Shown here: positions 5,805 to 25,935 of the stretch, in pieces
Layout: each line of letters opens with the position of its first letter
How positions within the stretch are numbered: position 1 is the stretch's first letter
Assembly (NCBI RefSeq): GCF_035594765.1
Contig: NC_085844.1
Span: 31,077,923 to 31,141,922, forward strand
DNA length: 64,000 nucleotides
Source: Anolis carolinensis
Taxonomy: Eukaryota
Direction of reading: 5' to 3'
Position numbers and translations under genes: made by a program
Notes under the pieces: model-generated
Database searches by the model: none
The model's input: the letters and a program-made list of their open reading frames with translations, nothing else
Told to the model about the DNA's origin: nothing

Positions 5805-7119
5805 AGCATATCTGCCAAGACTGGAATCCTCAAGGTGGCTATCATTTTCAGTTGTGCACCCTGTCCTGCCTTTTGGTTTGGCCTCAGCTCTGAGGGTATT
5901 TGCCAAATTATTGATGGTTGCAGGGCATACATCTGTTCCCATATCTGGACGATGTTCTTGTGAGAGCCATGTCTTTTTAGGGAGCTTTGCAGGATAGACT
6001 ATAAAAGTGAGCATGAATTGGTTTCGGTCTCATGATTTTTTGATAAACCAAGAAAAGCCAGCTGGTTCTCTTTAACAATCATCCACCCAGGGGCTGTGAT
6101 TGATATGGCTAAGAGCATGATTTACATCTCAGAAGAGATGTAACAATCTGGAATCAGAGATACAAAGTGTTCTAAACTGAATGTTTTCATGGCCTTAGAT
6201 TTCTTCGCCCCATGATTCAGATTGTACTTTGGCCCAAATGCCACCCAAATCCCCCGTGGTTTTGCAGTCACGTCAATCTATGATCACAAGACACAGTTAT
6301 ATATTATTGCTCTTTTCATATCAGGTCACAGAGTACCATTGTATTCCGACCTGTCTAATCTTCAGAAGCGCTCTCCATTTGGAGAGCCCCTTAATATCAC
6401 ACTAAGTATAAATGTCAGTCTTCTGGATTGAGCTTATTGGCAGGGAAGATTGGTTCAAGGACTTGGAGGTCACAGCATGAATTGGAGCTGAGTGGCCCAT
6501 CTAGTTCTCCACTTTGCCACATTATTCAAGGGGAAACATCTACTGGTCCCCACAGACAGCACAACCACACAAACATTAAAAATATAGGAGATCAAGTCTT
6601 TCTCACGTTACAGGAAGACGTCTCCTGTTCCAACAGTCTGAGAGAACAGTCCTTTTCAGTGCGAAATGTCCAGGGAATCATCAATTTCTAGGCAGAAGCT
6701 TATGACTGGGGAACATGGTTATTTTCTCAGCATGATAGCAGGATCAGATTCTGTGCAGTGGATACGTTTGTGTTGCTGACAAATCCCCAGAGCCACAAAA
6801 TCCTCACCAGGCTTCCCTGTTCAGGCACAAAGGGCAAGGATGCTCGATAGTGTCAGTGGCACAGGGTCTTGTGTTTGACTTCCCCCTTTCTCATATCCAG
6901 GCTGGTTAGGAAGAAGTCTCAAATCATTCTCACTGTGCCTTATTGACTCGGGAGACTGGTTTTCTGCCCTGACAGCCAAAGTCACTGTCCTGAACACCAG
7001 GACTTGATAATGCAGGAACCCATTCAACATTCAGATGCGACTTGCCTCCAGTCAGCCACATGGAGGTTTAACAGAAATCAGAAAAATTGGTTATGTGAAT
7101 TTTATGATCAGCATAGATC
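5805..7119 (+). mobile_element. Degenerate DIRS1-like retrotransposon (RT-RNaseH relic), cut by the duplication junction
   Basis: LPFGLASALRVFAK from 5866; PYLDDVLV with YLDD at 5942-5953; FLINQEK; RNaseH-like GKHLLVPTDSTT from 6531; many frameshifts. Confidence 0.7.
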
Positions 7120-7280
7120 AAAGGTACAAGATTGCATCTAATTTTTCATCCCATGAGTGGAGTGATTTCTATGTGTAAAACTCTCTTGCTAATGAAGGGT
7201 CCTTTTGCTCACAAAATTGAAAATTGGAAACAACTCACAGAACTTCTCTGTTGGAAAAAACGGACTATCAAAATTAATTA

Positions 7281-7403
<123 letters not shown>

Positions 7404-7488
7404 TCAAACCATTTGAAAATTAACTAAGATAACTTGAAAAAGTTTTTGTAACTGAAGCTGTCTGCTTTATTAGATGTGAAACACTCAC

Positions 7489-7574
7489 TGTGTCTTCTGG
7501 ACATTTCTCACAGGTAATAGATCCACCGTTATTAGTAATGATCTTGAATCCTGGTTGACAAGCACAAGATGTAT
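7489..7574 (-). CDS. TMEM67: TMEM67 (meckelin) exon 2, orphan duplicate A
   Basis: tttcag|AT ACA TCT TGT...GAC ACA|gtgagt; peptide (D)TSCACQPGFKIITNNGGSITCEKCPEDT resembles human [29 protein letters not shown]; phase fits exon 1; no exon 3 in the unit. Confidence 0.9.
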
Positions 7575-8415
7575 CTGAAATACATAGAATTGCTAATTGT
7601 ACCAAACAGCTACAAATTAAAAAGAAAATTAACAATACTCTTTCTTTAAATCTAAAGTGTCTTCTATTAAATTTCACAGTTGCTTTAAAACAACTCCAAA
7701 TTTCCCATAATCCCTGTCATTTAAATAGTTTGTGTGTGTGTCTATGTATATATAAAATGCACATGTTTTATTGATTAGCTTTTCGGCCTTATCGAAACAT
7801 TTAGCGAACACATTTAGCACATACACATACAGCATATAATCCACATTACAAAGTTAAAATAAGCAAGCTGTTAACAAAGGGTCAAGATCCTGATCCAGAT
7901 CAAACATCTGCATCACCTCTACAATTTACACCAAACTTCTCCAAATAATGTAGTTCTCAACTGACTTGCTGTAAATAGAAAAAGGGCTATTTTATATGTT
8001 ATTTTAGCATTCTGGTCAACCAGTAAAATGTAATTGTAATAAAGGATCTCAGTGTGTCTTTTGTATAATTTATGGTTCTAGGTATTGGATTCTCTCTTTC
8101 TTACACAAGTTAAACGGTATATGTGTGCTATGTTCTACTTCTGCAGCTCTACAGATGCAAAATAGTTCATTATAGGGGACTTGATTAAATCTTCCATGTC
8201 TGACCATTGTGTCCAGCTGTTCAAATCTACTTTTGGTAAAAACCCTCCCGAGGTGTTTAAGCATTTCTGTATTTAGAAATAGGTCTGTTTGAAAAGTATG
8301 TTTCAAAAGACTTAGCCATTTCAATGAGCCAGCTTTGCAGAGGGTAGCAATGTCTTTCTAAGCTTTTATATTAGTATTCATTGTACAACAATATTTGGAT
8401 CTAGTTCTTCTAGGA

Positions 8416-8542
8416 CAGTGGTTCTCAACCTGTGGGTTCCCAGGCCTACAACTGCCAGAAATCCCAGCCAGTTTACCAGTTGTTGGAATTTCTGGGAGTT
8501 GAAGGCCAAAACATCTGGGGACCTACATGTTGAGAACCACTG
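8416..8542. mobile_element. hAT MITE with SPIN-like TIRs
   Basis: CAGTGGTTCTCAACCTGTGG...GTTGAGAACCACTG; 8-bp TSD TTCTAGGA. Confidence 0.85.
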
Positions 8543-8550
8543 TTCTAGGA

Positions 8551-8840
8551 GATTTAGATATAGAATCGGAAGTCCACAACTCTTAATGTATTTTGTCAAT
8601 TGAACTAGCCAAGAGGTCTGACGTTGATTTTTTTTTTGTCTGCTCTAACAGGCACAGTTTTGGTAGTCTCTCATTTGCTGTGGCATTCAATTTTACCCAG
8701 TAGTTGTATGCCCTAGATTTGGATAAACCACCAACTGTATATACGCCCAGTTCTGCTCTTACTGCGCCAATTGGGGTCCTTTTGTCCACTCTCAGGAAGC
8801 TTCGCAGGCACTGTGATTGAGATGGGTCTAATAATGGTAC
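8551..8840 (-). mobile_element. Old LINE ORF2 C-terminal fragment
   Basis: Minus-strand peptide FLRVDKRTPIGAVRAELG...YNYWVKL...RLPKLCL resembles the post-RT region of non-LTR elements; interrupted by a SINE and a MITE. Confidence 0.5.
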
Positions 8841-8844
8841 CTGT

Positions 8845-9057
8845 CCTGCCAACCTAGCAGTTTGAAGACATGCAAATGTGAGTAGATCAATAGGTACCGC
8901 TCCGGCGGGAAGGTAACGGCGCTCCATGCAGTCATGCTGGCCACATGACCTTGGAGATGTCTATGGACAACGCCGGCTCTTCGGCCTAGAAAAGGAGATG
9001 AGCACCAACCCCCATGGTTGGTCACGACTGGACTTAACGTCACGGGAAACCTTTACC
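8845..9057 (+). mobile_element. Sauria SINE, 5'-truncated
   Basis: Matches the 3' half of the SINE at 4210-4537; ACCTTTACC tail. Confidence 0.85.
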
Positions 9058-9315
9058 TATAGGCCCCAAACTTCAGCTCCATATAAAAGCATAGTTAGTG
9101 ATGAATTCTGACTGGAAAAGCCTATGATAATGTGGCATGTCTCATTAAGAGCCACATCCACTGTTTTAGCGTGGTGAGATATCGCCCACACTGGGCATGC
9201 GTAGTCAGCAGCAGAGTAGCAAAGCATAAGGGCAGTATAGTGCTGTTAGGAATTGTTGTAAAGTCCAAAACTGGAGAGCCAAAGTTTGCCCATGCCTGGT
9301 ATAGTGCATCTACAC

Positions 9316-9478
9316 CAGGCATGGGCCAACGTGGGCCCCCGAGGTGTTTTGGCCTTCAACTCCCACCATTCCTAACAGCCTCAGGTCCTCTCCTTTTCCC
9401 CCTCAGCCGCTTAAGGGCTTAGGAATGGTGGGAGTTGAAGCCCAAAACACCTGGAGGGCCCACGTTGGCCCATGCCTG
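9316..9478. mobile_element. hAT MITE (CAGGCATGGG TIR family)
   Basis: Long TIR CAGGCATGGGCCAACGTGGGCCC; 8-bp TSD ATCTACAC. Confidence 0.9.
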
Positions 9479-9679
9479 ATCTACACTGAAGAGTTAATAC
9501 ATTTTGACACCACTTTAATTGCCGTGGCTCAATGCTATGGCTCATGGGTGTTCTAGGTTGGCTTCATCAAACTACAACTCCCGAGATTTCATAGCACTGA
9601 GCCATGGGAGTTAACGTGGTGTCAAACTGCATTCCTTCTACTGTGCAGATGCCCGTCGCGTCCGCCCCTGTGGTCTCAC

Positions 9680-9866
9680 CCCTGTGGCCTTTGGTCTGGG
9701 ATGCCCCGCACTGCCCACAGGAGAGAGTGGCGATGTCGAAGTACTGAGTGGCGGCGCAGCTCTGAGGCTGCCGCCAAGGGAGGAAGAAGGCCTGGCCGCC
9801 CGCGAGGCCTGCGTGCAGCGGGAGCAGGAGCAGCGCCATTCCCAGCCAGCGCCTCGGCGTCGCCAT
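9680..9866 (-). CDS. TMEM67: TMEM67 exon 1 (signal peptide + start of Cys-rich domain), orphan duplicate A
   Basis: MATPRRWLGMALLLLPLHAGLAGGQAFFLPWRQPQSCAATQYFDIATLSCGQCGASQ resembles human [33 protein letters not shown]; donor AGG G|gtgaga; CpG-rich. Confidence 0.92.
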
Positions 9867-9872
9867 GGTAAC
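9859..9872. promoter_or_regulatory. RFX X-box overlapping the TMEM67 start codon (A)
   Basis: GTCGCCATGGTAAC fits GTNRCC-N0-3-RGYAAC; TMEM67 is a ciliary gene. Confidence 0.7.
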
Positions 9873-10061
9873 TGAGGCCTCCCTTTCAGCCACGCCCACC
9901 CGCTCAGGGCCGTCTCGTTAAGGGTTGCGCCCCACTTTGGGACTTCAACTCCCAGAAGGCTTAGCTGGTGTAGCCAATGGACGGTGATCCTGGGAGTTGA
10001 AGTCCGAAAAAAATCCCTAGAGGCAGTCCCTGAAACTCATGCCTACGGGAAGCCACGAGGA

Positions 10062-10579
10062 TTAGAAAGAACGGAGCTGGACCACTCTTAACAACCACTA
10101 TGTCAGACTACACAGAGAAACCACTGAAATCCACAAGAGTGGGGGTAATTTCAACAGAAAGGAGGAAACCACGAAAATGAACAAAATCTGGCTACCAGTA
10201 TTTAAAAAAACGCTAAAAGCAGAACAGTAGATAAAAAGCAACACTAAAAAACAGGGGAATACCAGACCAGAAAAAAATCAGGGCCAGCTAACACCTCCCA
10301 ACAAAGGATTCCCCCAGGCAGGAATCAGCCAGGACCTGAAGCTGCAAGGTTATTCAGTGCTAATCAAGGTGATTTAATTGCAACATCCACACTTCCACTA
10401 ACAGACAAGAGTTCTTTCTCCCACCCTGGACCTTCCGCAGATAAACCTCCCTTGCCTGGTTTCCAATATAGCTCACAATGTCAGAGATGCCTGCCATAGA
10501 TGTGGGTGAAATGTCAGGAGAGAATGCTTGAACATGCTTGAAAATGGCCACGCAGCCTGGAAAACTCACAGCAACCCAT
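10062..10579 (+). mobile_element. Penelope-like retroelement fragment
   Basis: Terminal motif GATGCCTGCCATAGATGTGGG...GGAAAACTCACAGCAACCCA, shared with other copies in the window. Confidence 0.7.
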
Positions 10580-10944
10580 GGAAAAAGTTTGTGTAGCCTA
10601 TTTTGCTATAGTTTTTCAATGAATATCTGCGTGATTATCAAGAAAAAAGTGCCAATCCACAGCAGAAATCATGGGATCAGAAAGGCATTTATTGGAAAGC
10701 AAAGCTCCCTTGGCATCACTGGGCAGATACCATGGCAAGCACACCTTACTTGCTTAGACTGGCATTACAATCCTTTCAAAATCAATGTGAATTTAACAGG
10801 AATTTGAAAAAAGAACAGGAAATGACACCCACTCAAAGTATGTTTATTTGTATTACAAAGGCTCTTACAAAGTTTCATTATCCAACATTAACTCCAATCA
10901 GGGCTCTGAACTAGAAAAAACGGTCTATGCCTTTCAGGCCCAGA

Positions 10945-11280
10945 GAAGAAAGGGGGGGGGGGGGAGAAAAGAAATTGGCTGCTGCTAGGTGACATGTTTA
11001 TGCAGGGAAAGGAGAAAGGAAAGCAAGAGGAAAGGACAGGAAAAGGAGAAGGGAGGAAAAAGGAAAGGAAGAGAAAGGAAAAGGGACAGGGTATGAGGGG
11101 AAGAAAAGAGAAAGAAAGGACAAAAGGAGGAAGAAAAATGGTGGGAAGGAAGAGAAAGGAAAGGAAAGGTATGAGGGAAAGGAAGAAAAAGAGGGGGAGA
11201 AAGGAGGGAAAGTAAGGGAAAGATAGAAAAGAGAGGGAGAAATGTGCACCAGGGAAACGGGAGAAGGAAGACAAAAAGAA
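10945..11280 (+). repeat. GA-rich low-complexity tract
   Basis: Almost pure purine GAAAG-type sequence; repeated at ~25203-25540. Confidence 0.9.
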
Positions 11281-11354
11281 AATGTATAGTTCTATATATA
11301 AAAACAGCTCAAAAGTAAATACCTGGCTGAGCCATGGCTAGAGGTGGCCAAATA

Positions 11355-11677
11355 CAGTAGGGTCTGACTTATCCAAGCTAAACGGGCCGGCAGAAGCTTG
11401 GATAAGTGAATATCTTGGATTATAAGGACTGATCAAGGAAACGCCTATTAAACATCAAATTAGGTGATGATTTTACAAATTAAGCACCAAAACATCATGT
11501 TAGACAACAAATTTGACAGAAAAAGTAGTTCAATACGCAGTAATGTTCTGTTGTAATTACTGTATTTACGAATTTAGCACCAAAATATCACGATATATTG
11601 GAAACATTGACTACAAAAATGGCTTGGATTATCCAGAGGCTTGGATAAGCGAGGCTTGGATAAGTGAGACTCTACTG
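11355..11677. mobile_element. Tc1/mariner-type MITE
   Basis: TA|CAGTAGGGTCTGACTTATCCAAGC...GCTTGGATAAGTGAGACTCTACTG|TA. Confidence 0.85.
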
Positions 11678-11752
11678 TAGGTACAAATTTAAGTGCACAG
11701 CACAAGCGCGTTGCCAAGATCCTCCAAGCTGCTTCTAAAACAGCGAAGGAAT

Positions 11753-12519
11753 TGGGTTGCTGTGAGTTTTCCGGGCTGTATGGCCATGTTCCAGAAGCAT
11801 ACTTTCCTGACGTTTCACCCACATCTATGGCAGGCATCCTCAGAAGTTGTGAGGTCTGTTGGAAACTATGCAAGTGGATATATATATCTGTGGAATGTCC
11901 AGGGTGAGAGAAAGCACTCTTGTCTGTTGGAGGCAAGTGTGAATGTTGCAATTGGCCACCTTGATAGTCTGGCAGCTTCAAAGCCTGGCTGCTTCCTGCC
12001 TGGGGGAATTCTTTGTTGGGAGGTGTTATAGTAGGCCCTGATCGTTTCCTGTCTGGAATTCCCCCCCCCCTTTTTTTTAGTGTTGTTAGTGTTGTTCTTT
12101 ATTTACTATTCTAATTCTAGAGTTTTAAAATAGTGGTAGCCAGCTTTTGTTCATTTTCATGGTTTCCTCCTTTCTGTACCAGTATCAAAAAAAAAAAAAA
12201 ACTCTAAAAGGAGAACAGTAAAGAAAAAGCAACACTCAAAAACAGGGGAATACCAGACCAGAAACTATCAGGGCCAGCTAACACCTCCCAACAAAAGATT
12301 TCCCCAGGCAGGAATCAGCCAGGCCCTGAAGCTGAAAGATCATTCAATGCTAATCAAGACGGTTAATTGCAACATTCACACTTTCTGCAAAGAGACAATA
12401 ATTCTTTGTACTACTCTGGACATTCAACAAATAGGCTTCTGTCATAGATGTGGGCAAAACGTCAGAAGAGAATGCTTCTGGAACATGGCCATACAGCCCA
12501 GAAAACTCGTAACAGCCCA
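11753..12519. mobile_element. Penelope-like element as an inverted pair
   Basis: 11753-~12180 is approximately the reverse complement of ~12181-12519. Confidence 0.75.
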
Positions 12520-12649
12520 AAATGTATCGTTCTATATATAAGAACAGCTGAAGAGTAAATTCCTGGCTGAGCCGTGGCTGCAGGCGGCCAAATAGTTACA
12601 CATTAATGTGCAGAGCAATAAGAATAAAAAAGAGACAGTAACAGGAAAG

Positions 12650-13400
12650 GTTTCGCAGGCGCGTTGCCAACATCCTCCGACCTGCTTCTAAAACAGCTAA
12701 GGAACTACCACCATCTTCCCGCCAAGCGAGGCCAATTTCTTTTTCAAGCATGCGCCCTTGCTACCTGCCGGAAGGAGAAAGTCGAACGGGGTCGATTGGC
12801 GACAGCTTCGACTTCCGCTAGTGTTCGCTTTTCGGCGCCTACCGTAGAAGCCGCAGCTGCCTGAGTGCGCACGCGCAGTCTCGAGGAGGCGGCTGCCATT
12901 TTGTCCCTTCCTCAGGCGACGGCGGTTGCTGCTTTCCTTGGAAAGAAAAGAAACGGCGTCACCGGAGCTCAGTTGGCAGAGGGGAGAGGTTGCTGGGCTC
13001 GGTGGTGGTGGAGGTTGAGGTTGTATGACAGACACGTTGCGGTTTCCTTCCCCCTTTCCCTCCGAGGAAAGAACCGGAGCCGGGGTGCCCGGAGGGAGGG
13101 GCTCGCTCGTTGCCTTGACCCGCGTCGGCCTGGTTAGTAGAAAGGCGGTCCCGCGCGCGGGGTGGGCGGCTTCGGTGAAGGGACGGTCCCTGTGGAAAGG
13201 ATTTAGGGCTCTTTGTGGACCACGAGCGGAACCTCAAAAATCCAATGCGGTTCTAGGCCGCGTCAATGGGAGCCTGGTGCGTGGAGGAAGGGAAGCCCCA
13301 GGCCTGATCTGCCCTGCGTTGGCCAGGCCTCGCCCGGGAAACCCTGTGTCCCGATCTGGGCGTGACGATTCAAGAAGGATATATTGACCAGCCGAGAAAG
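12650..13400 (+). promoter_or_regulatory. CpG-island promoter / probable non-coding first exon of RBM12B copy 2
   Basis: CpG-dense; NRF1 consensus TGCGCACGCGCA at 12866-12877; YY1-like GCCATTTTG at 12895-12903; divergent from TMEM67 exon 1. Confidence 0.75.
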
Positions 13401-13419
13401 GTGGTCAAAATGAGCCCTG

Positions 13420-13760
13420 TGAGGAGTGGTTAAAAGAGCTGGGCCTTGGAGAAAAGAAGTCTGAGAAGGAGACATGAGAGCCACCTTTGTAGATTTCGAA
13501 GGAATATCTGCTCTGGAGACTAGGGCACGACACAGTGGATTCAAATGGTTAAAAAAAGGAGTTCCTCCTAAACATTAGGAAGAAATTCTTGATAGTAAGA
13601 GCTGCTCAAGAAAGCAATACAGTGCCTCGGAGCGTGGAGGCGTCTTCTTTGGTGGTTTTTATGCGGAGGATGGATGGGGGTGCTTTGCTGGCATGTTCCT
13701 GCAGGGCAGAAGGAGGTTGGACTGGATGGCCCTTGGAGGCTCTTCCAACTCCATGATTCT
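13420..13760 (+). mobile_element. CR1 LINE 3' end fragment
   Basis: AAACATTAGGAAGAAATTCTTG...GGACTGGATGGCCCTTGGAGGCTCTTCCAACTCCATGATTCT, typical of a CR1 3' end. Confidence 0.7.
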
Positions 13761-16063
13761 GTGTCCCTCCCAAATTGTGGGACCTTCTTTCTCCCTTGTC
13801 ACGTTTCATTGGGTGCAATGGTGGCATCTGAGCTACTTTGATGGCCCTCCAGGTTGGAGGGGGAAGGTTTGCTGATGGTATTTTATTTTTGCATCAAGGC
13901 ATTCCTGTCAAGTCACAGAGTCTCTTCGCAGAAATCCTTGGTACATCCTCCAATGGTTGTGTATAAAATTATTTTCTCCTCAGGCCTCCAAATCACAGAA
14001 CATTATATGCTCTCCCATGTGTACTCGGTTGGCCATATGGGAATCTCTCAAGAGTGTGCTGGATCATTCTGAAGTGGTTTTCTTAGGAGCATGTTGCTGG
14101 ATTTGAGTGGAATATACAGAAACTACCAGAGAACAACACAGGACATAAAACACAGTGATGAGTCTTGTCTCCTGGAGGTTGCCTTGCCGCTTTCCTAGCC
14201 CATGTTTACTTGGAAAAGAAGTGGTCAGGCATAGTTGCTCAGGAAGCCATGGTTTCTCTACTTGGAGTGTAATCTGTGGAAGTCACTATGCCTGGATATC
14301 CCAGAGTTCTGCCATACTGTTTATTCCAGGTGGAAAATAGGATTCTCTTTGCAACAAACCACATTTTGAAAAGATCAGAGGAAGTCCTGCTTGAGTAATG
14401 AGCAAAGTTCAATGATATGCCTGTCTTCACCTGTTATAACAGGAATCTCAATATTTGCCTCCTTTTCTTGAGATATAGGCAGGAATAAAAAGCTGGAAGA
14501 GTTTATTAGCCAGGAATATTTGTTTTGGGAATGTATCACTTCGGACTTTCAAATAACATGCATCATTTGGGTCAAGTTACACAGAGAACTACTTGTTTCA
14601 GCTCGCCCCCAAACCTTGTCAGAGGCTCTATCTCCAGTGACCATTTTATATAGGTACAAATTGGTATTTTAAAAAAATGATTCCGCTTTGCAGATGATTC
14701 CATAGGAAATGCTGGGGTCAGTTTAAGTCCTGGATGTTTTGCACACTTGAGTTCAGTGATACAAGTGTGTAGGTATAAGAGTGCGGCTTTAACAACGTAT
14801 TTGATCTTTTAATACTTTTGACTTGCATATAAATTGGTAACCTGTTTTTCGTCTTCAGAGATATTGAAAACTTAGCTTGCATGCATCTTGTGGATTTAAC
14901 TGCATTGGAGACATCTGTAGAAAAAATTGGTATAACTTTACAGTACATAGGCCTCACTAGTTTTATACTGAATTATACTTGTAGAAAATATCAATTGTAA
15001 CTAATTTTGTTGCATTTGTTGTCATAAGCTTGTATAGTTTCACAGTTGAGAAACTATAACAATGCTGTATTGAGTTTTTGAACAATGGATTATTAAGATA
15101 AATGGAAATGTTGCCGTTGATTTTTTTTTCTGCTATATAGATTGGGTCTCTAGAAAACAAATGAATTAAAACACTTCAAATTTGGGAAGATTTTTTTTTT
15201 TAAAGAAACCAGCCCGGACTGATTTTATATGATGTCTTTAGGTGGGTACAATAGGTGTGTTCCAGGTATTATCCAAAACCTGAATATTTGACGTCATAAG
15301 GCTAATAGTCTTTGGCTTTTTGGTCTTGTTCATCGATCACCAAATGACTTGGGTACTTGTAGTAATTGTCTTTTAATAGGGCATTGAAAGTGAAATATTT
15401 CCCTGCAAATATTAGAGAGATAATTTAGAAAATGTCTAGTGAACTCAGTGGAACGTACTTCCAGATAAACTTGCATATGATTTGATGTTGTAAGATTATG
15501 TTTGATTCTGCTGGATTCATGGTGTGAAGACAATAATTTGAGAGGAAACTTGAGCGCATGTTATCAGTATAATTTCATCGGATTTCTGATTTGGGGATTT
15601 TTCTTGCAACATAACCATCTTTGCAAGGCACAATTCAGTGTTGATGAAAAATAAGCCACTATCTTCAGAAGAAAACGAATTAAAGAGGACTAGAAAAAAT
15701 CTATATTTTTATATGAGACTTCATCTTTCAAGGATTTTGAGTGGTTCTTTGACTTTTCAACAATACTTGGATCTCTTGGAGAATAACCTGGAATTCTCAT
15801 TACTTTCTGGAGTCATTCTAACATGAGAGTATTATGTCATCCAAAATGGATTCGTAAAACAAGATGCTGTACAACTGCGTTTCATTACCACTCATTTTTT
15901 GCATACATCTCTGAATTGGGAATGGATTCTCGCATAAAACCACACATTTTTATTTCTCACTGGTTTTGTGTTACTGGTTGTGGTTGAGGATATTCCACAA
16001 TAATGACAATCAGATGTAAAACTACTTCGTAGCAGTTAATTATGTTTCATTTTCTTTCCACAG

Positions 16064-16104
16064 TTGATTTCACAGACTTTATCAGGCCTTTCAAGAAGAA
16101 ACAG
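16064..16104 (+). other. Probable 5'UTR exon of RBM12B copy 2
   Basis: tttctttccacag| ... ACAG|gtaagc; 41 nt, with an alternative acceptor at 16076. Confidence 0.6.
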
Positions 16105-16675
16105 GTAAGCTTCTAGAAGCTTAATACTTCTGTTCTCTCAGGTCATGGCTTTTTCCAAACTTGTAGCAAAAAAAGGAAGAGGTATGGTTGGATCCTAATC
16201 AAAAGAAAAAATAAATAAAGGGGAAACGATGGATAAACTTAATGATTTACTAGTTGTGTGTGATGTCTGAAAATCGAATTGGTTTCATTTTTGTTTGGAA
16301 GTGCTGAAACATCTTTTCTGGTTACAATGTTTTCTATGCTTTTGATATCAGAGTAGGGGTTATTTAATTTCTGGTGGATTATAACTTAATGTGAAAGCTA
16401 CTGTATAGTCAGTCATAGTCAGAGCGACTAAAATTGTTGCTTTAATGATTGGGAGCACTTGTAGAATAGTCCAGTGCTGTATACTGAGATGTTAATTGTT
16501 AGCAGGTGTAGAGATGAAATAGGGCTCTCGTGGTTGCATATGAAGGAGTTACTTTTTCATTTTGAATACTTTCAAATAGTATGGCTTGAAACGACACTGT
16601 TCCAGTGTAATTAAGCTTGTTGTCATGTGTACGTTTTTGTCCACAGGTCATTTTTTGCTGTGGGTTGAACTCAGA

Positions 16676-18868
16676 ATGGCTGTAGTCATCCGTTTACAGG
16701 GGCTTCCTGTTGTTGCGGGTCCTGCAGATATTCGCCATTTGTTCTCAGGATTGAATATTCCTGATGGAGGTGTATATATCACTGGAGGAGAAAAAGGAGA
16801 AGCTTTTGTTATATTTGAAACAGATGAAGATGCACGGCAAGCAATGAGTTATTCGGAGAGGTATATAAAAAACTCACGTATTGGGTGTTTTCTCAGCAGC
16901 AAAACAGAAATGCAGAACGTGATAGAACTCAATAGGAAAAGATTTGATCACAGTGGAAGAGAAACAATTGGATCTAGATGGATAGATTCTAGTAACTCTA
17001 GTAGCTTTTCGAATATAGTTGCATCCATGAGTAAAGGAACTGGCAGATCTGGTTATGATTCTGTGGATCCGTTTGAGGATAGGCTTCATTCAAATGGCTC
17101 TGAAAACAGCAGTACAGATCTTTCGAAATTAAGTTATAATCATCCTAGGAGTAATTTAAATAAGATAACACATAATCAATTCAAGACATCTAATTCAGAT
17201 GAATTGTACTTATTCATACGTAGTATGCCTTACACTGCAACAGAAGATGACATAATTGCTTTCTTTGATGGTTTACAAGTGGATGGTATGATCATGTTAA
17301 AAACCAATGGGGTAAACAATGGAGATGGTCTGGTGAAATTTGCTACACCGACTGATTGCACGAGAGGGTTGCAGCGTGATAGACAGTATATGCGCCACAG
17401 ATGTATAAGAATATATCGCTCTAATGAAGGGACATGGATTAGGAGAATGGGGAAAAAAGGATTACAAATGCATCAGGATTTCAGTGATGAACAGTTTTCT
17501 CATGATTTCAATAAAGAAAGACGCCCAGACTTCCAATCCTCAAGAATGCATACCCGTTCAAAGTCTCCTCCAAGGAGGGTTGTGGCACATACCCATTCAA
17601 GATCCCCTCCTAAGAAGATTGCGGCACGTACCGTTTCGAGGTCTCCCCCAAGAAGTGTTATGACACACAGCCATTCAAGGTCTATATCAAGGAGGGCTAT
17701 GGCACGCACTCATTCAAGGTCTCCACCAAGGAGGATTACAGCACGCTCTCGTTCACCTTTATCTGGTTCAAGCCGGTCTCCACCTCATAATGGGGAACAT
17801 TATATACATGTCAAAAACTTGCCATTTCCTATTGAAAAGAGAGAATTGAGAGCATTCTTTGAAGACCTAGATATACCTGACAGTCATATTACATTCCTTA
17901 AGATACCTGACAATAGACCAAACAAAGATGCAGTTGTGATGTTCAGATCAATGAGAGACTATTATTCTGCACTAGGTTATCACAAGTACCCTCTTCGTGG
18001 GCAAGAAATTTTACTTTTCCCCATTCCTAAAGAAGCAGTGATGCAGCTTGCTGGATTTTCTGAAAATGAAAAATCCCCAGAAAGATATCACATTGCAAAC
18101 GAGAAAGGTGACTGGGATAGATATTCTGATCCAAAGACATGTGTGTATGTAAGAAACTTTCCATATGATGTGACAAAACGTGAAATCCACACGTTTTTTG
18201 CAGGATTTCATATTAACAATTATGACATTCATTTGCTTTACGATGACAAAGGAATTGGACTGGGAGAAACACTGGTCAAGTTCAGAACTGAAGATGATGC
18301 TCGGAAAGCTGAAAACTTAAATCGCCGTCGGTTTTTGGGGACAGAGGTGCTTTTGAGATGTATATCTGAGAAGCAAATGAAAGAGTTTGGTGTTAATGTT
18401 CCACCAGTGTCAGATGGAAAGATGCAGGATCATATCCGTTCAGATGAAAGAGGTCAACAAGGGAACCGAAAGCATCCATCTGATTATAAACATCCACCTA
18501 GTGATCTTATCAGCACATCTGATAATTTTAAAGATTCTGCTCCATTTACAGAGTTTGGTGAAGATGTTCGTGGAAATTTTCCAGGTGGACGCTTCATGTC
18601 AGATTCTAATGTCAGTGGTAGTTCAAATTGCTTCACTCTGATTAAATTAAAGAATATACCATTTCGAGCAACACCAAATGAAATTCTGGACTTCTTTCAT
18701 GGGTATAAGATTATTCCACAATCTCTTTCAATCCAGCACAACCAATATGGATTGCCTTCTGGTGAAGCTGTTATCGCCCTAGTAAATTATAATGAAGCCA
18801 TGGCAGTTGTTAATGAATTAAATGATAGGCCAATCGGCCAACGCAAAATTAGATTAACCTTGGTATAG
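16676..18868 (+). CDS. RBM12B: RBM12B copy 2, 730 aa, single coding exon
   Basis: Starts MAVVIRLQGLP (RBM12 family N-terminus); acceptor ttttgtccacag| at 16646/16647; five RRMs; intact. Confidence 0.95.
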   Translation: MAVVIRLQGLPVVAGPADIRHLFSGLNIPDGGVYITGGEKGEAFVIFETDEDARQAMSYSERYIKNSRIGCFLSSKTEMQNVIELNRKRFDHSGRETIGSRWIDSSNSSSFSNIVASMSKGTGRSGYDSVDPFEDRLHSNGSENSSTDLSKLSYNHPRSNLNKITHNQFKTSNSDELYLFIRSMPYTATEDDIIAFFDGLQVDGMIMLKTNGVNNGDGLVKFATPTDCTRGLQRDRQYMRHRCIRIYRSNEGTWIRRMGKKGLQMHQDFSDEQFSHDFNKERRPDFQSSRMHTRSKSPPRRVVAHTHSRSPPKKIAARTVSRSPPRSVMTHSHSRSISRRAMARTHSRSPPRRITARSRSPLSGSSRSPPHNGEHYIHVKNLPFPIEKRELRAFFEDLDIPDSHITFLKIPDNRPNKDAVVMFRSMRDYYSALGYHKYPLRGQEILLFPIPKEAVMQLAGFSENEKSPERYHIANEKGDWDRYSDPKTCVYVRNFPYDVTKREIHTFFAGFHINNYDIHLLYDDKGIGLGETLVKFRTEDDARKAENLNRRRFLGTEVLLRCISEKQMKEFGVNVPPVSDGKMQDHIRSDERGQQGNRKHPSDYKHPPSDLISTSDNFKDSAPFTEFGEDVRGNFPGGRFMSDSNVSGSSNCFTLIKLKNIPFRATPNEILDFFHGYKIIPQSLSIQHNQYGLPSGEAVIALVNYNEAMAVVNELNDRPIGQRKIRLTLV

Positions 18869-20430
18869 ATAAAAAGATGGCTTGAAAATATTTGCATTGT
18901 TAATGTTGAGAAATGACATTTTCAAGTAGAAGTTTACTATTTGTAAATACTTTTGACTGGTTTTAAAATTTAGGCCACTATTGTGTGGGATTTTATTAGA
19001 GACTACTGGATCACCTTGGTAGTTCATGAAAACATGACTTTGAAAGTATTTTGTTTTTTATCCCATAACCGCATGAAGATGTCTAATTTGTCTTTATTAA
19101 TTCAATATAGCTGCACTTAGAGCTAGAAATTATGTTCTTCTGTGTATGTTAACAAGAAGACCCACCGTTTTTCTTGAATTCTTGTCCATTATTATATTCA
19201 GTGGTATTTTGAGTATCTTTTTCATGCTGGTTCAGCATTTCTTTTAAAATAAAAATATATCTATTGAAAATTGTGCTTATTTTTATTTGGTACAGTCTGG
19301 ACACTTAAGAACTTACCTTGCTTAATAATGTGTTATTAAGATGTTATGTAATGTATGTGTGATTTTTATGATTGGAAACCGCCCTGAGTCCCGGGAGATA
19401 GGGCAGTATATAAATAAAGTTTTGTTATTATTTTATTATTATTAACTAGGGCTGCATTTTAACAATGAATTTATCCCATGTTTACTTTTGTAGCACTTGT
19501 AGAATATACTCTTTGTATTGGTAAGCCTATCTGATTTTTAAGAAAAGCTTATCGAAATCTTCTTAGACTATCCTTTCCTGTCCAGCCTGTCTGTTCCAAG
19601 ACATTACTTCAAAATGTATGTACCTTTTTACATAGGAAGATGAAAAAAATACTTATATATGGTGTAGCTTTTCAAAGGAGTTAGTTTTCTCAGTATATTT
19701 ACAGTTTCAGATTTGTTAAGATGACTGGTTATGTAGGTTATTTTATAAGATATCCAAGCATATTTCTATGCCTTTATCTGTGGATATTCCAGAATTTGTG
19801 GAAGTAACGGGTTGTTGAATGTGTGCTTCTTAAATTACCTATTGTTTATTTATTTAATATTTACTATATTTATACCCTGCTCTTAATCCCAAAGGGAACT
19901 CAGTGCGGCTTACAGAGTATGGCAAAGTTCAATGCCGCATTATACAACAAATATATCAAATTATAAAACAATTAAAACATATAAATACAATAAAACAGAT
20001 TGCTGACCTTGGGATGCTGAAATGTAGGCTGGTCTAAATGGAGTCCGGCAGCACCAAGCAGCCGGAGTGAGTGCCCAGAAGCTGAGTTAGGTGCAGCAAG
20101 GGAAACAAACGCTGCCCCTTCCCCCAAAGCCCCTGGTCATGGTACCTTCACTTCTTGCTTTTGTCTGAGACCCCGTGGGAGTGGTTCTTTTTATGCTCCA
20201 GTCTCTGGGCCCCAGCCTCTTGACTGCCACGATATAAAAATACAGTGAAATGGCAAGATACTAATAACACTCCAGTGGAGTTTTTCATTTGGTTCAACAG
20301 TAGCAATCCACAAATTTGTATCCCTGTCACTTCAGTTATACTTTTAGGTATTCAGCGTTACTGATGCAATTTTAAAACAACAAAGCTGTGGGAAACTAAA
20401 CTAGGATTTCTCTGCCTTACCCTTGTAAAC

Positions 20431-21379
20431 AGCAGAGGGCATGATTTTCTTGGGAAAGCTGGGCTCTAACAACTACAGAGATGGATCTTGTAGTCTGGCA
20501 CAGTTTGGCAATGGTCATGCTGACCTGCACACTGGAGGTATTGCTTGTTTCTCTGGACTTTGCAGAAGCATATCTGCCAAGACTGGAATCCTCAAGGTGG
20601 CTATTCCGACCTGTCTAATCTTTAGAAGCGCTCTCCATTTGGAGAGCCCCCTAATATCACACAAAGTATAAATGTCAGTCTTCTGGATTGAGCTTATTGG
20701 CAGGGAAGATTGGTTCAAGGACTTGGAGGTCACAGCATGAATGGGAGCTGAGTGGCCCATCTAGTTCTCCACTTTGCCACATTATTCAAGGGGAAACATC
20801 TACTGGTCCCCACAGACAGCACAACCACACAAACATTAAAAATATAGGAGATCAAGTCTTTCTCACGTTACAGGAAGACGTCTCCTGTTCCAACAGTCTG
20901 AGAGAACAGTCCTTTTCAGTGCGAAATGTCCAGGGAATCATCAATTTCTAGGCAGAAGCTTATGACTGGGGAACATGGTTATTTTCTCAGCATGATAGCA
21001 GGATCAGATTCTGTGCAGTGGATACGTTTGTGTTGCTGACAAATCCCCAGAGCCACAAAATCCTCACCAGGCTTCCCTGTTCAGGCACAAAGGGCAAGGA
21101 TGCTCGATAGTGTCAGTGGCACAGGGTCTTGTGTTTGACTTCCCCCTTTCTCATATCCAGGCTGGTTAGGAAGAAGTCTCAAATCATTCTCACTGTGCCT
21201 TATTGACTCGGGAGACTGGTTTTCTGCCCTGACAGCCAAAGTCACTGTCCTGAACACCAGGACTTGATAATGCAGGAACCCATTCAACATTCAGATGCGA
21301 CTTGCCTCCAGTCAGCCACATGGAGGTTTAACAGAAATCAGAAAAATTGGTTATGTGAATTTTATGATCAGCATAGATC
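20431..21379 (+). mobile_element. DIRS1-like relic, second copy
   Basis: Near-identical to 38816-39761 and, from ~20603, to 6342-7119. Confidence 0.65.
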
Positions 21380-21540
21380 AAAGGTACAAGATTGCATCTA
21401 ATTTTTCATCCCATGAGTGGAGTGATTTCTATGTGTAAAACTCTCTTGCTAATGAAAGGTCCTTTTGCTCACAAAATTGAAAATTGGAAACAACTCACAG
21501 AACTTCTCTGTTGGAAAAAACAGACTATCAAAATTAATTA

Positions 21541-21663
<123 letters not shown>

Positions 21664-21748
21664 TCAAACCATTTGAAAATTAACTAAGATAACTTGAAAA
21701 AGTTTTTGTAACTGAAGCTGTCTGCTTTATTAGATGTGAAACACTCAC

Positions 21749-21834
21749 TGTGTCTTCTGGACATTTCTCACAGGTAATAGATCCACCGTTATTAGTAATG
21801 ATCTTGAATCCTGGTTGACAAGCACAAGATGTAT
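21749..21834 (-). CDS. TMEM67: TMEM67 exon 2, orphan duplicate B
   Basis: Same sequence and splice sites as 7489-7574. Confidence 0.9.
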
Positions 21835-22675
21835 CTGAAATACATAGAATTGCTAATTGTACCAAACAGCTACAAATTAAAAAGAAAATTAACAATACTC
21901 TTTCTTTAAATCTAAAGTGTCTTCTATTAAATTTCACAGTTGCTTTAAAACAACTCCAAATTTCCCATAATCCCTGTCATTTAAATAGTTTGTGTGTGTG
22001 TCTATGTATATATAAAATGCACATGTTTTATTGATTAGCTTTTCGGCCTTATCGAAACATTTAGCGAACACATTTAGCACATACACATACAGCATATAAT
22101 CCACATTACAAAGTTAAAATAAGCAAGCTGTTAACAAAGGGTCAAGATCCTGATCCAGATCAAACATCTGCATCACCTCTACAATTTACACCAAACGTCT
22201 CCAAATAATGTAGTTCTCAACTGACTTGCTGTAAATAGAAAAAGGGCTATTTTATATGTTATTTTAGCATTCTGGTCAACCAGTAAAATGTAATTGTAAT
22301 AAAGGATCTCAGTGTGTCTTTTGTATAATTTATGGTTCTAGGTATTGGATTCTCTCTTTCTTACACAAGTTAAACGGTATATGTGTGCTATGTTCTACTT
22401 CTGCAGCTCTACAGATGCAAAATAGTTCATTATAGGGGACTTGATTAAACCTTCCATGTCTGACCATTGTGTCCAGCTGTTCAAATCTACTTTTGGTAAA
22501 TACCCTCCCGAGGTGTTTAAGCATTTCTGTATTTAGAAATAGGTCTGTTTGAAAAGTATGTTTCAAAAGACTTAGCCATTTCAATGAGCCAGCTTTGCAG
22601 AGGGTAGCAATGTCTTTCTAAGCTTTTATATTAGTATTCATTGTACAACAATATTTGGATCTAGTTCTTCTAGGA

Positions 22676-22802
22676 CAGTGGTTCTCAACCTGTGGGTTCC
22701 CAGGCCTACAACTGCCAGAAATCCCAGCCAGTTTACCAGTTGTTGGAATTTCTGGGAGTTGAAGGCCAAAACATCTGGGGACCTACAGGTTGAGAACCAC
22801 TG
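22676..22802. mobile_element. hAT MITE, SPIN-like TIRs (duplicate)
   Basis: Copy of 8416-8542; TSD TTCTAGGA. Confidence 0.85.
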
Positions 22803-23103
22803 TTCTAGGAAATTTAGATATAGAATCGGAAGTCCACAACTCTTAATGTATTTTGTCAATTGAACTAGCCAAGAGGTCTGACGTTGATTTTTTTTTGTCT
22901 GCTCTAACAGGCACAGTTTTGGTAGTCTCTCATTTGCTGTGGCATTCAATTTTACCCAGTAGTTGTATGCCCTAGATTTGGATAAACCACCAACTGTATA
23001 TACGCCCAGTTCTGCTCTTACTGCGCCAATTGGGGTCCTTTTGTCCACTCTCAGGAAGCTTCGCAGGCACTGTGATTGAGATGGGTCTAATAATGGTACC
23101 TGT

Positions 23104-23316
23104 CCTGCCAACCTAGCAGTTTGAAGACATGCAAATGTGAGTAGATCAATAGGTACCGCTCCGGCGGGAAGGTAACGGCGCTCCATGCAGTCGTGCTGGC
23201 CACATGACCTTGGAGATGTCTATGGACAACGCCGGCTCTTCGGCCTAGAAATGGAGATGAGCACCAACCCCCATGGTTGGTCACGACTGGACTTAACGTC
23301 ACGGGAAACCTTTACC
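23104..23316 (+). mobile_element. Sauria SINE 3' half (duplicate)
   Basis: Copy of 8845-9057. Confidence 0.85.
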
Positions 23317-23574
23317 TATAGGCCCCAAACTTCAGCTCCATATAAAAGCATAGTTAGTGATGAATTCTGACTGGAAAAGCCTATGATAATGTGGCATGTC
23401 TCATTAAGAGCCACATCCACTGTTTTAGCGTGGTGAGATATCGCCCACACTGGGCATGCGTAGTCAGCAGCAGAGTAGCAAAGCATAAGGGCAGTATAGT
23501 GCTGTTAGGAATTGTTGTAAAGTCCAAAACTGGAGAGCCAAAGTTTGCCCATGCCTGGTATAGTGCATCTACAC

Positions 23575-23737
23575 CAGGCATGGGCCAACGTGGGCCCCCG
23601 AGGTGTTTTGGCCTTCAACTCCCACCATTCCTAACAGCCTCAGGTCCTCTCCTTTTCCCCCTCAGCCGCTTAAGGGCTTAGGAATGGTGGGAGTTGAAGC
23701 CCAAAACACCTGGAGGGCCCACGTTGGCCCATGCCTG
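23575..23737. mobile_element. hAT MITE (duplicate)
   Basis: Copy of 9316-9478; TSD ATCTACAC. Confidence 0.9.
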
Positions 23738-23938
23738 ATCTACACTGAAGAGTTAATACATTTTGACACCACTTTAATTGCCGTGGCTCAATGCTATGGC
23801 TCATGGGTGTTCTAGGTTGGCTTCATCAAACTACAACTCCCGAGATTTCATAGCACTGAGCCATGGGAGTTAACGTGGTGTCAAACTGCATTCCTTCTAC
23901 TGTGCAGATGCCCGTCGCGTCCGCCCCTGTGGTCTCAC

Positions 23939-24125
23939 CCCTGTGGCCTTTGGTCTGGGATGCCCCGCACTGCCCACAGGAGAGAGTGGCGATGTCGAAG
24001 TACTGAGTGGCGGCGCAGCTCTGAGGCTGCCGCCAAGGGAGGAAGAAGGCCTGGCCGCCCGCGAGGCCTGCGTGCAGCGGGAGCAGGAGCAGCGCCATTC
24101 CCAGCCAGCGCCTCGGCGTCGCCAT
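23939..24125 (-). CDS. TMEM67: TMEM67 exon 1, orphan duplicate B
   Basis: Same peptide and donor as 9680-9866. Confidence 0.92.
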
Positions 24126-24131
24126 GGTAAC
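24118..24131. promoter_or_regulatory. RFX X-box overlapping the TMEM67 ATG (B)
   Basis: GTCGCCATGGTAAC. Confidence 0.7.
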
Positions 24132-24320
24132 TGAGGCCTCCCTTTCAGCCACGCCCACCCGCTCAGGGCCGTCTCGTTAAGGGTTGCGCCCCACTTTGGG
24201 ACTTCAACTCCCAGAAGGCTTAGCTGGTGTAGCCAATGGACGGTGATCCTGGGAGTTGAAGTCCGAAAAAAATCCCTAGAGGCAGTCCCTGAAACTCATG
24301 CCTACGGGAAGCCACGAGGA

Positions 24321-24838
24321 TTAGAAAGAACGGAGCTGGACCACTCTTAACAACCACTATGTCAGACTACACAGAGAAACCACTGAAATCCACAAGAGTG
24401 GGGGTAATTTCAACAGAAAGGAGGAAACCACGAAAATGAACAAAATCTGGCTACCAGTATTTAAAAAAACGCTAAAAGCAGAACAGTAGATAAAAAGCAA
24501 CACTAAAAAACAGGGGAATACCAGACCAGAAAAAAATCAGGGCCAGCTAACACCTCCCAACAAAGGATTCCCCCAGGCAGGAATCAGCCAGGACCTGAAG
24601 CTGCAAGGTTATTCAGTGCTAATCAAGGTGATTTAATTGCAACATCCACACTTCCACTAACAGACAAGAGTTCTTTCTCCCACCCTGGACCTTCCGCAGA
24701 TAAACCTCCCTTGCCTGGTTTCCAATATAGCTCACAATGTCAGAGATGCCTGCCATAGATGTGGGTGAAATGTCAGGAGAGAATGCTTGAACATGCTTGA
24801 AAATGGCCACGCAGCCTGGAAAACTCACAGCAACCCAT
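24321..24838 (+). mobile_element. Penelope-like fragment (duplicate)
   Basis: Copy of 10062-10579. Confidence 0.7.
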
Positions 24839-25612: not shown

Positions 25613-25935
25613 CAGTAGGGTCTGACTTATCCAAGCTAAACGGGCCGGCAGAAGCTTGGATAAGTGAATATCTTGGATTATAAGGACTGATCAAGGAAAC
25701 GCCTATTAAACATCAAATTAGGTGATGATTTTACAAATTAAGCACCAAAACATCATGTTAGACAACAAATTTGACAGAAAAAGTAGTTCAATACGCAGTA
25801 ATGTTCTGTTGTAATTACTGTATTTACGAATTTAGCACCAAAATATCACGATATATTGGAAACATTGACTACAAAAATGGCTTGGATTATCCAGAGGCTT
25901 GGATAAGCGAGGCTTGGATAAGTGAGACTCTACTG
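25613..25935. mobile_element. Tc1/mariner MITE (duplicate)
   Basis: Copy of 11355-11677; TA TSD. Confidence 0.85.

What the first reader, a model, noticed from the sequence alone, without database searches (positions are those of the whole stretch)
7489..24131. Orphan TMEM67 promoter + exon 1-2 cassettes: alternative starts or antisense drivers
Seen: both cassettes keep the ATG, X-box, open frame (91 codons) and all splice sites. Exon 2 ends in phase 0 and no exon 3 follows in the unit. They fire on the minus strand toward the 3' end of the preceding RBM12B copy. Inference, option (a): exon 2 splices across the array to exon 3 of the intact TMEM67, giving a UGT1A/protocadherin-like set of variable starts with RBM12B genes nested antisense in the intron. 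Option (b): they make RFX-dependent antisense RNA over RBM12B in ciliated cells or testis. Their intactness may only reflect recent duplication.
Basis: partly seen in the sequence, partly recalled or inferred. Interest (0 to 1): 0.75.

Follow-up and report, generated by a model that had tools for sequence, protein, structure and literature searches.

The report
Truncated meckelin copies riding RBM12B triplication
In a lizard genome, a head-to-tail triplication of the RNA-binding gene RBM12B carried along two copies of the front end (promoter and exons 1-3) of the neighbouring cilia gene TMEM67; these stubs are likely transcribed by-products that end in recruited junk exons, not a set of alternative gene starts.

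Summary
The cassettes are real, but the description is wrong on a key point: each holds exons 1-3; exon 3 lies at 7391-7298 and 21651-21558. They are the junction remnants of a three-unit RBM12B array. Both junctions are identical, with 5-bp microhomology; the intact TMEM67 starts 6.8 kb left of the window. A 2,027-bp block with promoter and exon 1 is identical in all three copies. The cassettes differ from the intact gene by one residue and from each other by none, so there are no variable starts. RefSeq already models them as short meckelin-like proteins spliced into cryptic exons in the RBM12B 3' flank; I rebuilt all three models exactly from GT-AG sites. I obtained no direct stranded RNA proof. 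Intactness is expected without selection (46-64%). This is a 3'-truncated partial duplicate of the NOTCH2tv/SRGAP2B kind. New here: RBM12B has amplified repeatedly in squamates, and short meckelin-like records lie on the same contigs in Pogona, Lacerta and Sceloporus, ending at different exons. Earlier scan notes held nothing on this.

The parts
9651..10962 (-). Cassette A: TMEM67 promoter and CpG island, inside the 2,027-bp block (8935-10962) identical in all three units
9859..9872 (-). X-box-like near-palindrome overlapping the ATG (cassette A); RFX binding untested
   Evidence: consensus recalled
9680..9866 (-). Cassette A exon 1 CDS (187 nt; signal peptide and start of the cysteine-rich domain)
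7489..7574 (-). Cassette A exon 2 (86 nt; carries T76 where the intact gene has N76)
7298..7391 (-).
7112..7119 (.). Duplication junction A: RBM12B 3' flank joined to TMEM67 intron 3; 5-bp perfect microhomology at 7115-7119
   Evidence: bridged by contigs in 3 of 4 runs laid
4027..4113 (-). Cryptic exon C1 (87 nt) recruited from the RBM12B-1 3' flank in RefSeq models
2503..2688 (-). Cryptic terminal exon C2 with stop (2512-2510) and AATAAA at 2508-2503
1..1931 (+). RBM12B copy 1 CDS (starts 265 bp left of the window; 731 aa, intact)
12701..13400 (+). CpG island, presumed RBM12B copy 2 promoter, about 3 kb from the TMEM67 ATG, head-to-head
   Evidence: TSS not mapped
16676..18868 (+). RBM12B copy 2 CDS (730 aa, intact, RRM_1 domains)
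21372..21379 (.). Duplication junction B, identical to junction A over the 101 bp compared
21558..21651 (-). Cassette B exon 3
21749..21834 (-). Cassette B exon 2
23939..24125 (-). Cassette B exon 1 CDS; X-box-like motif 24131-24118; CpG island 23901-24300
30934..33126 (+). RBM12B copy 3 CDS (730 aa, intact)
39754..39761 (.). Right end of the duplicated unit (donor of the junction's left half)

Best explanation
The two cassettes are 3'-truncated copies of TMEM67 (promoter plus exons 1-3) at the junctions of a three-unit RBM12B tandem array, and they are likely transcribed as a by-product into short messages that end in recruited flank exons and likely have no selected function. SHOWN: the unit runs from TMEM67 intron 3 to the RBM12B 3' flank; TMEM67 and RBM12B are head-to-head, with the ATG about 3 kb from the next CpG island; both junctions are the same; three RBM12B ORFs are intact; promoter and exon 1 are identical in all units. 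INFERRED: one microhomology-mediated duplication, then an unequal crossover made the third unit, and conversion or crossover homogenised the promoter block. Because the promoter is identical, the cassettes likely fire when TMEM67 does. The exon 3 donor has no exon 4 nearby and takes the next usable acceptor. For A this is C1 (3.2 kb away), then C2 with a stop and polyA signal, giving a predicted 157- or 210-aa product with a signal peptide, 11 of the 22 CRD cysteines and an unrelated tail. For B, whose flank has lost both cryptic acceptors, the next is exon 2 of cassette A (14 kb away, in frame), as in the 270-aa model. If anything in the array is under selection it is more likely RBM12B copy number or sequence.
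For: Exon 3 present, breakpoint in intron 3. Exactly three exon-1 copies and three RBM12B copies in the genome; all 15 Meckelin-family hits fall in one gene. Exons 2-3 differ from the intact gene at 3 of 180 sites against 38 of 1,298 in the neighbouring introns (intron 3 remnant, intron 2, distal intron 1), so no clear exon-specific constraint. The identical 2,027-bp block includes repeat-derived sequence (0 of 5,000 permutations gave so long a run), which fits conversion rather than purifying selection. A neutral cassette stays intact in 46-64% of simulations (10% indels assumed). Three RefSeq models are reproduced letter for letter from window pieces with GT-AG sites. Their tails have no meckelin similarity, so they were probably built from transcript alignments (inference; pipeline behaviour recalled). 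In humans all 3'-truncated duplicates studied were transcribed, tracked the parent's expression and often fused to downstream exons (PMC6169893 sections 6-7). Short meckelin-like records in other lizards end at different places, as expected of passengers.
Against: No direct stranded RNA evidence. In one search none of the 15 joints shown (of 247) is exon 3-C1, exon 3-exon 2 or exon 1-exon 2, and the one spliced exon 2-3 joint (X5) could come from the intact gene. Transcription rests on predicted models. An exon 3-to-exon 2 join could equally come from a circular RNA mapped onto the duplication. The modelled message would have its stop in the last exon and so would escape decay, and similar stubs recur in several lizards, so a function is not excluded. 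I could not view DNA around the other species' records.
Confidence: 0.68

Rival explanations
1. The cassettes are effectively silent; the RefSeq models come from reads of the intact gene, circular RNA or RBM12B read-through mis-assigned among near-identical copies.
For: No cassette-specific splice joint among the 15 of 247 joints shown; contigs across the junction are unstranded and may be DNA or plus-strand read-through from RBM12B-2, whose flank is short.
Against: The promoter is identical over 2 kb. An exon 3-C1 join cannot come from the intact gene, which lies downstream of C1 on the minus strand. The models persist in two annotation versions, with alternative use of the C1 donor.
Confidence: 0.1
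2. NOTCH2NL-like function: the cassettes make a secreted N-terminal meckelin fragment, or by cross-unit exon 3-to-exon 2 splicing a meckelin with a repeated 60-aa disulfide module, that modulates Wnt5a/ROR2 signalling or meckelin dimerisation.
For: Signal peptide kept and no strong later hydrophobic segment. Exons 2+3 are a 180-nt phase 1-1 module with 8 cysteines, which would keep register if the 11 disulfides pair in sequence (PMC8565905 says 'arranged in sequence'; the pairing is my inference). The 270-aa model has this repeat. The CRD N-terminus contacts the partner protomer. A shed N-terminal fragment is hypothesised to act like an SFRP (PMC12119803). Short meckelin-like records occur in three other lizards.
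Against: Only residues 1-122 of a CRD that spans about 37-280 in human; C116 loses its presumed partner. Mutations that abolish Wnt5a binding map to interfaces the fragment lacks. Tails and end points are not shared between species. No constraint signal. The closest human case, NOTCH2tv, gives no stable protein.
Confidence: 0.08
3. One reading: the cassettes are kept as RFX-driven antisense regulators of the upstream RBM12B copies.
For: Convergent geometry; modelled transcripts enter the RBM12B-1 3' flank; X-box-like motif at the ATG. A B-to-A read-through would cross all of RBM12B-2 antisense (270-aa model).
Against: The geometry follows automatically from duplicating one gene of a head-to-head pair. 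The A message ends near 2500, outside the RBM12B CDS (ends 1931). One run's RBM12B 3' contig ends at 2318 (X20), so mature overlap may be nil. RFX control of this promoter was not found in a paper listing (listing only).
Confidence: 0.07
4. One reading: cassettes act as alternative starts spliced across the array to the body of the intact TMEM67, like UGT1A or protocadherin clusters.
For: The exon 3 donor (phase 1) is frame-compatible with exon 4 of the intact gene; same strand and order.
Against: Nothing is variable: identical promoter and exon 1, one residue different. The jump is 20.6 kb from A, past C1, C2, five minus-strand AATAAA hexamers and the intact gene's own promoter and exons. All four A. 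carolinensis meckelin records that include exon 2 carry N76, not T76.
Confidence: 0.04
5. The array is an assembly artefact (false duplication or merged haplotypes).
For: A and B are 99.85% identical; 2 kb is identical in all three.
Against: Units differ by large indels and 19-34 RBM12B residues. Contigs from three separate studies bridge the junction; two of them also hold cassette-type intron 1 without the 3-kb insert. Older records hold two RBM12B copies and the T76 cassette. The third unit is less firmly shown than the second.
Confidence: 0.03

Closest known systems
3'-truncated human segmental duplicates (SRGAP2B/C, ARHGAP11B, NOTCH2NL; Dougherty et al. 2018, PMC6169893)
   Same: Parent's promoter and 5' exons retained, 3' end lost, downstream flank exons fused; expression expected to follow the parent.
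   Different: Here the stub is a passenger at the junction of a short local tandem array of a neighbouring gene; no function and no direct long-read evidence.
NOTCH2tv / NOTCH2NLR (bioRxiv 10.1101/2025.03.14.643395)
   Same: Promoter and first exons made identical to the parent by gene conversion; N-terminal piece of a cysteine-rich ectodomain with a novel tail.
   Different: 654 kb from its parent rather than 17-31 kb; protein instability shown there, untested here.
Recruited non-coding sequence after tandem duplication in Drosophila yakuba (Rogers et al. 2017, PMC5460883)
   Same: A duplicated 5' gene fragment activates adjacent sequence at a tandem junction; usual fate is loss.
   Different: Vertebrate, multi-exon, antisense into a neighbouring paralog's flank.
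UGT1A / clustered protocadherin / GCNT2 variable-first-exon clusters (PMC1885805)
   Same: Tandem promoter-plus-5'-exon units upstream of one gene body, same strand, compatible phase.
   Different: No sequence or promoter diversity, three-exon rather than single-exon units, whole antisense genes and polyA sites between units, no evidence of splicing to the constant exons.

Membership tests
Variable-first-exon cluster (UGT1A/Pcdh) | Tandem array of 5' units upstream of one set of constant exons, same strand and phase | tested here: met
Variable-first-exon cluster (UGT1A/Pcdh) | Variable exons encode diverged N-terminal domains | tested here: not met
   exon 1 0 of 187 differences; exons 1-3 one residue; A = B
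Variable-first-exon cluster (UGT1A/Pcdh) | Each variable exon has a distinct promoter | tested here: not met
   1,000 bp upstream identical in all three
Variable-first-exon cluster (UGT1A/Pcdh) | Each unit is spliced to the constant exons | tested here: inconclusive
   0 of 4 long A. carolinensis records with exon 2 carry the cassette residue; contigs cannot phase it
3'-truncated partial duplicate with recruited exons | Parent's promoter and 5' exons duplicated, 3' exons absent | tested here: met
3'-truncated partial duplicate with recruited exons | New exons and polyA signal available from flanking, non-parental sequence | tested here: met
   C1, C2 with GT-AG sites, stop and AATAAA; three RefSeq models reproduced exactly
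3'-truncated partial duplicate with recruited exons | Transcripts demonstrated from the duplicate | tested here: inconclusive
   predicted models only; contig data unstranded, 15 of 247 joints shown
Functional truncated paralog (SRGAP2C/NOTCH2NLB type) | Stable protein that acts on the parent or its pathway | not testable with these tools
   fold of the 270-aa model uninformative, pLDDT 33
Functional truncated paralog (SRGAP2C/NOTCH2NLB type) | Signature of constraint on the retained frame | tested here: inconclusive
   3 of 180 exonic against 38 of 1,298 intronic differences; too young to test
Regulatory cis-antisense transcript | Overlap with the sense gene and an effect on its expression | not testable with these tools
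   modelled A message ends about 570 bp beyond the RBM12B stop; no stranded data

The most novel reading that the evidence does not exclude
Lizards have repeatedly and independently made soluble meckelin CRD fragments by amplifying the TMEM67-RBM12B head-to-head locus (Anolis exons 1-3, Pogona 1-4, Lacerta about 1-6). In the anole, cross-unit exon 3-to-exon 2 splicing also lengthens the disulfide arch by in-frame 60-residue modules. These would be NOTCH2NL-like modulators of Wnt5a/ROR2 signalling or meckelin dimerisation.
Probability: 0.07. Interest if true: 0.72.

Novelty: new member of a known kind. Interest (0 to 1): 0.24.

Why it matters
As it most likely stands, this is an ordinary passenger of gene duplication that RefSeq has already modelled, and it warns that reads and primers for anole TMEM67 exons 1-3 and for RBM12B report three loci. 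The more useful lead is the driver: RBM12B, a little-studied RNA-binding protein, appears in several copies in at least five squamate lineages and evolves fast (79% identity between two anoles, against 95% for meckelin). That pattern is worth a selection study. If the bold reading held, lizards would offer natural replicates for the open question of whether a shed meckelin N-terminus acts as a soluble Wnt modulator (posed in PMC12119803).

Tried and rejected
Run search: no holder on record as RNA; 18 of 24 rows held part of the stretch; run types are guesses. Laying contigs: only 4 of 24 runs, repeats swamped the joint and loose-end tables (15 of 247 joints, 24 of 1,946 loose ends shown), the look-up of joined forms in other runs was not given, and contigs carry no strand. 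Missing joints and the low cover at 5837-6135 in X12 are not evidence either way. X4's contig depths for one-, two- and three-copy stretches (5.7, 11.5, 18) look like DNA, but the tool warns depth is no copy number and X4 may not be independent of the assembly. Fold of the 270-aa model with a 6-row alignment: pLDDT 32.7, meaningless; no fold search run on it. My first exon 2 bounds were off by two, corrected. The three-way alignment misplaced the 3-kb insert and the 3' flanks; divergence figures come from the block alignments. Positive selection on RBM12B among the three copies: not shown (pN/pS 1.07, 0.46, 0.58 on 9-12 synonymous differences; mosaic pattern). The careful tree did not finish; the quick tree is reported. 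The Varanus 205-aa record has no contig and was not counted as a cassette. Earlier scan findings: none near this place, none with either gene name. Papers: no report of this locus in searches; subscription journals and supplements were not searched.
Full report
WHAT THE WINDOW IS. The window is G000:C4:31,077,923-31,141,922. Protein records on a contig of the same length are named Anolis carolinensis. Gene order on the + strand is TMEM67 (minus; ATG 6,847 bp left of the window; all 15 Meckelin-family hits in one gene), RBM12B copies (plus), then FAM92-family exons (minus, window 43,214-54,607). Self-comparison shows a tandem array. Unit 0 runs from -12,566 to 7,111, unit A from 7,112 to 21,371, unit B from 21,372 to 39,761. 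A genome search finds three full-length copies of TMEM67 exon 1 and three identical RBM12B N-termini plus one distant paralog.

CHECK OF THE OBSERVATION. The two cassettes exist as described for ATG, exon 1, exon 2, 91 codons, phase 0 and splice sites. The claim that no exon 3 follows is wrong. Exon 3 (94 nt) sits 97 bp after exon 2 in both units, so the frame is 122 codons, ends in phase 1, and the break is in intron 3. The X-box-like motif overlaps the ATG in all three copies. The consensus is recalled and, with one mismatch, matches 21 times in the window, so it is only compatible with RFX control. A paper search gave five listings; I read none of them.

HOW THE ARRAY AROSE. Both junctions are identical and join the RBM12B 3' flank to TMEM67 intron 3 through 5 bp of perfect microhomology. 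One microhomology-mediated duplication followed by unequal crossing-over explains this (inference). A and B differ at 14 of 9,316 aligned sites; unit 0 and B at 87. The differences are uneven: about 2.5% around exons 2-3 and distal intron 1, 1.3% in the RBM12B intron, and none over 2,027 bp (8935-10962) covering promoter and exon 1. No run that long arose in 5,000 permutations. The block includes repeat-derived DNA, which favours conversion or recent crossover over selection; homogenisation during assembly cannot be excluded. The intact gene has about 3 kb in intron 1 that the cassettes lack. The RBM12B copies are mosaics of each other, and two older records show other mosaics, which fits continuing exchange.

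NO VARIABLE STARTS. Exons 1-3 differ from the intact gene at 3 of 367 nt (N76T and two silent changes); A and B are identical. UGT1-type clusters are defined by diverged variable exons, each with a distinct promoter, spliced to constant exons (PMC1885805, passages). The first two features fail. All four A. carolinensis meckelin records that include exon 2 have N76 (models follow the genome, so this is weak). A join from cassette A to exon 4 would span 20.6 kb.

WHAT THE CASSETTES PROBABLY MAKE. A search with exon 1 returned five proteins, two of them short anole records; their clusters add a third. XP_016848296.1 (157 aa) is exons 1-3 plus C1 read through its donor. XP_016848295.1 (210 aa) is exons 1-3, C1, C2. 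XP_016848295.2 (270 aa, this assembly) is exons 1-3 of B, exons 2-3 of A, C1, C2. All three are reproduced exactly from window pieces with canonical sites; C2 has its stop followed at once by AATAAA. C1 and C2 are not repeats; they occur only in the array's flanks. Unit A's flank has lost both acceptors, which explains why the B model jumps to exon 2 of A. These tails cannot come from protein homology, so transcript support is likely (inference; that the annotation pipeline needs alignments for such isoforms, and that the .1 records come from an earlier assembly of another animal, is recalled). The exon 3-to-exon 2 join could also be a circular RNA mapped onto the duplicate.

DIRECT SEQUENCING EVIDENCE IS THIN. 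No listed run is on record as RNA. I laid 4 of the 24 runs, all contigs. Contigs bridge the junction in X4, X5 and X12 (three studies). X12 has a 616-nt contig with no difference from cassette A over 7312-7927, where the intact gene differs at 19 sites and by the 3-kb insert; X5 has a similar one with one difference. So cassette-type sequence exists beyond this assembly. X5 holds a spliced exon 2-3 joint, allele unknown. None of the 15 joints shown (of 247) is cassette-specific. Strand and level cannot be read from contigs.

IS INTACTNESS MEANINGFUL? No. Exons 2-3 differ at 3 of 180 sites, neighbouring introns at 38 of 1,298. At this divergence a neutral cassette keeps ATG, frame and splice sites in 46-64% of 20,000 simulations per setting (10% indels assumed), and A and B count as one test.

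COULD A PRODUCT WORK? Anole meckelin aligns end to end with human meckelin 7FH1. The human CRD spans residues 37-280 with 11 disulfides arranged in sequence, and its N-terminus packs into the partner protomer (PMC8565905, passages). The anole protein has 22 cysteines in 37-255; exons 1-3 hold 11. The stub therefore has under half the domain and probably one orphan cysteine, and lacks the interfaces where mutations abolish Wnt5a binding. It keeps a hydrophobic N-terminus and has no strong later hydrophobic segment. Exons 2+3 form a 60-codon phase 1-1 module with eight cysteines, so a repeated module could keep the disulfide ladder (my inference). A fold of the 270-aa model was uninformative. 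Whether the naturally shed, much larger N-331 fragment acts as a soluble Wnt modulator is stated as unknown (PMC12119803, passages).

THE WIDER PATTERN. All three RBM12B frames are intact. RBM12B is 79% identical between A. carolinensis and A. sagrei, meckelin 94.6%. The A. sagrei cluster holds isoforms of what looks like one locus, by consecutive accessions, so the array probably postdates that split. Several RBM12B-like records share a contig in Sceloporus (3 clusters), Phrynosoma (2), Paroedura (2), Lacerta (2 sequence types) and Pogona (including a fused two-copy model). In a quick tree of 34 selected rows (most bird, amphibian and fish hits left out), copies group by species in Anolis, Pogona, Lacerta and Paroedura (SH-aLRT 100), with one older pair shared by Sceloporus and Phrynosoma. 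Conversion can also make copies group by species. Short meckelin-like records lie on the same contigs. Pogona has 157 aa ending at the end of exon 4 with three residues different from its full-length meckelin; Lacerta has 233 aa with a novel tail after about residue 205; Sceloporus has 176 aa and may be a split model. I could not see the DNA around these. Different end points suggest separate events. With the genes about 3 kb apart head-to-head, most duplications of RBM12B with its upstream region will break inside TMEM67, so recurrence is expected without selection on the stubs.

COMPARISON WITH WHAT IS KNOWN. In human brain, all 3'-truncated duplicates examined were transcribed, followed the parent's expression and often fused to downstream exons (PMC6169893, abstract and sections 6-7). 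NOTCH2tv has a converted promoter and first exons identical to NOTCH2, a novel tail, and no stable protein (bioRxiv 2025.03.14.643395, passages). Duplicated 5' fragments recruit flanking sequence in Drosophila, and the usual fate is loss (PMC5460883, abstract and section 8). PMC2568002 (passages) notes only that RBM12 and RBM12B split in fish. Searches found no paper on this locus. Supplements were not read.

VERDICT. Observation partly confirmed; option (a) rejected; option (b) right on direction but unsupported as a function. Best reading: transcribed passengers of an RBM12B triplication (0.68). New member of a known kind, already modelled in RefSeq. Interest 0.24, owed mainly to the recurrent RBM12B amplification. 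Bold reading (soluble or lengthened CRD modulators): probability 0.07, interest 0.72 if true.

Noticed in passing
window 1-1931, 16676-18868, 30934-33126: Three intact RBM12B paralogs, mosaic: copy 3 matches copy 2 in codons 103-245 and mostly copy 1 after that. Copy 1 against copy 2: 35 non-synonymous and 9 synonymous differences (pN/pS 1.07).
   Followed up: partly
P0016-P0020, P0024, P0043-P0046, P0143-P0151: RBM12B appears amplified in at least five squamate lineages and evolves far faster than its neighbour meckelin (79% against 95% between two anoles).
   Followed up: partly
P0154, P0155, P0158: Short meckelin-like records on the same contigs as multiple RBM12B copies in Sceloporus, Lacerta and Pogona, ending at different exons.
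   Followed up: partly
window 8935-10962 and equivalents in units 0 and B: 2,027-bp block identical in all three units, covering the TMEM67 promoter and exon 1; short reads and CAGE cannot separate the three promoters.
   Followed up: yes
L002:8000-10000 and L001:1-963: About 3 kb in intron 1 of the intact TMEM67 is absent from both cassettes. Some 2 kb of it has two further copies at 90-95% identity within L002 (one inverted), and it ends in a tandem repeat of about 75 bp.
   Followed up: no
window 46300-49232 (+): Broken open frames resembling a LINE endonuclease and reverse transcriptase (recognised by eye, not searched), lying between FAM92-family exons.
   Followed up: no
window 43214-54607 (-): FAM92-family (CIBAR1, name recalled) exons, single copy here, just right of the array.
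   Followed up: partly
window 609-794, 17549-17738, 31807-31992: A 39-bp (13-residue) Ser/Arg/Pro-rich repeat inside each RBM12B CDS; the same region is longer in A. sagrei and Pogona proteins.
   Followed up: no
P0014: A 984-aa unnamed protein record stitches pieces of two RBM12B copies and the intergenic DNA; it looks like a gene-prediction artefact of this array.
   Followed up: no
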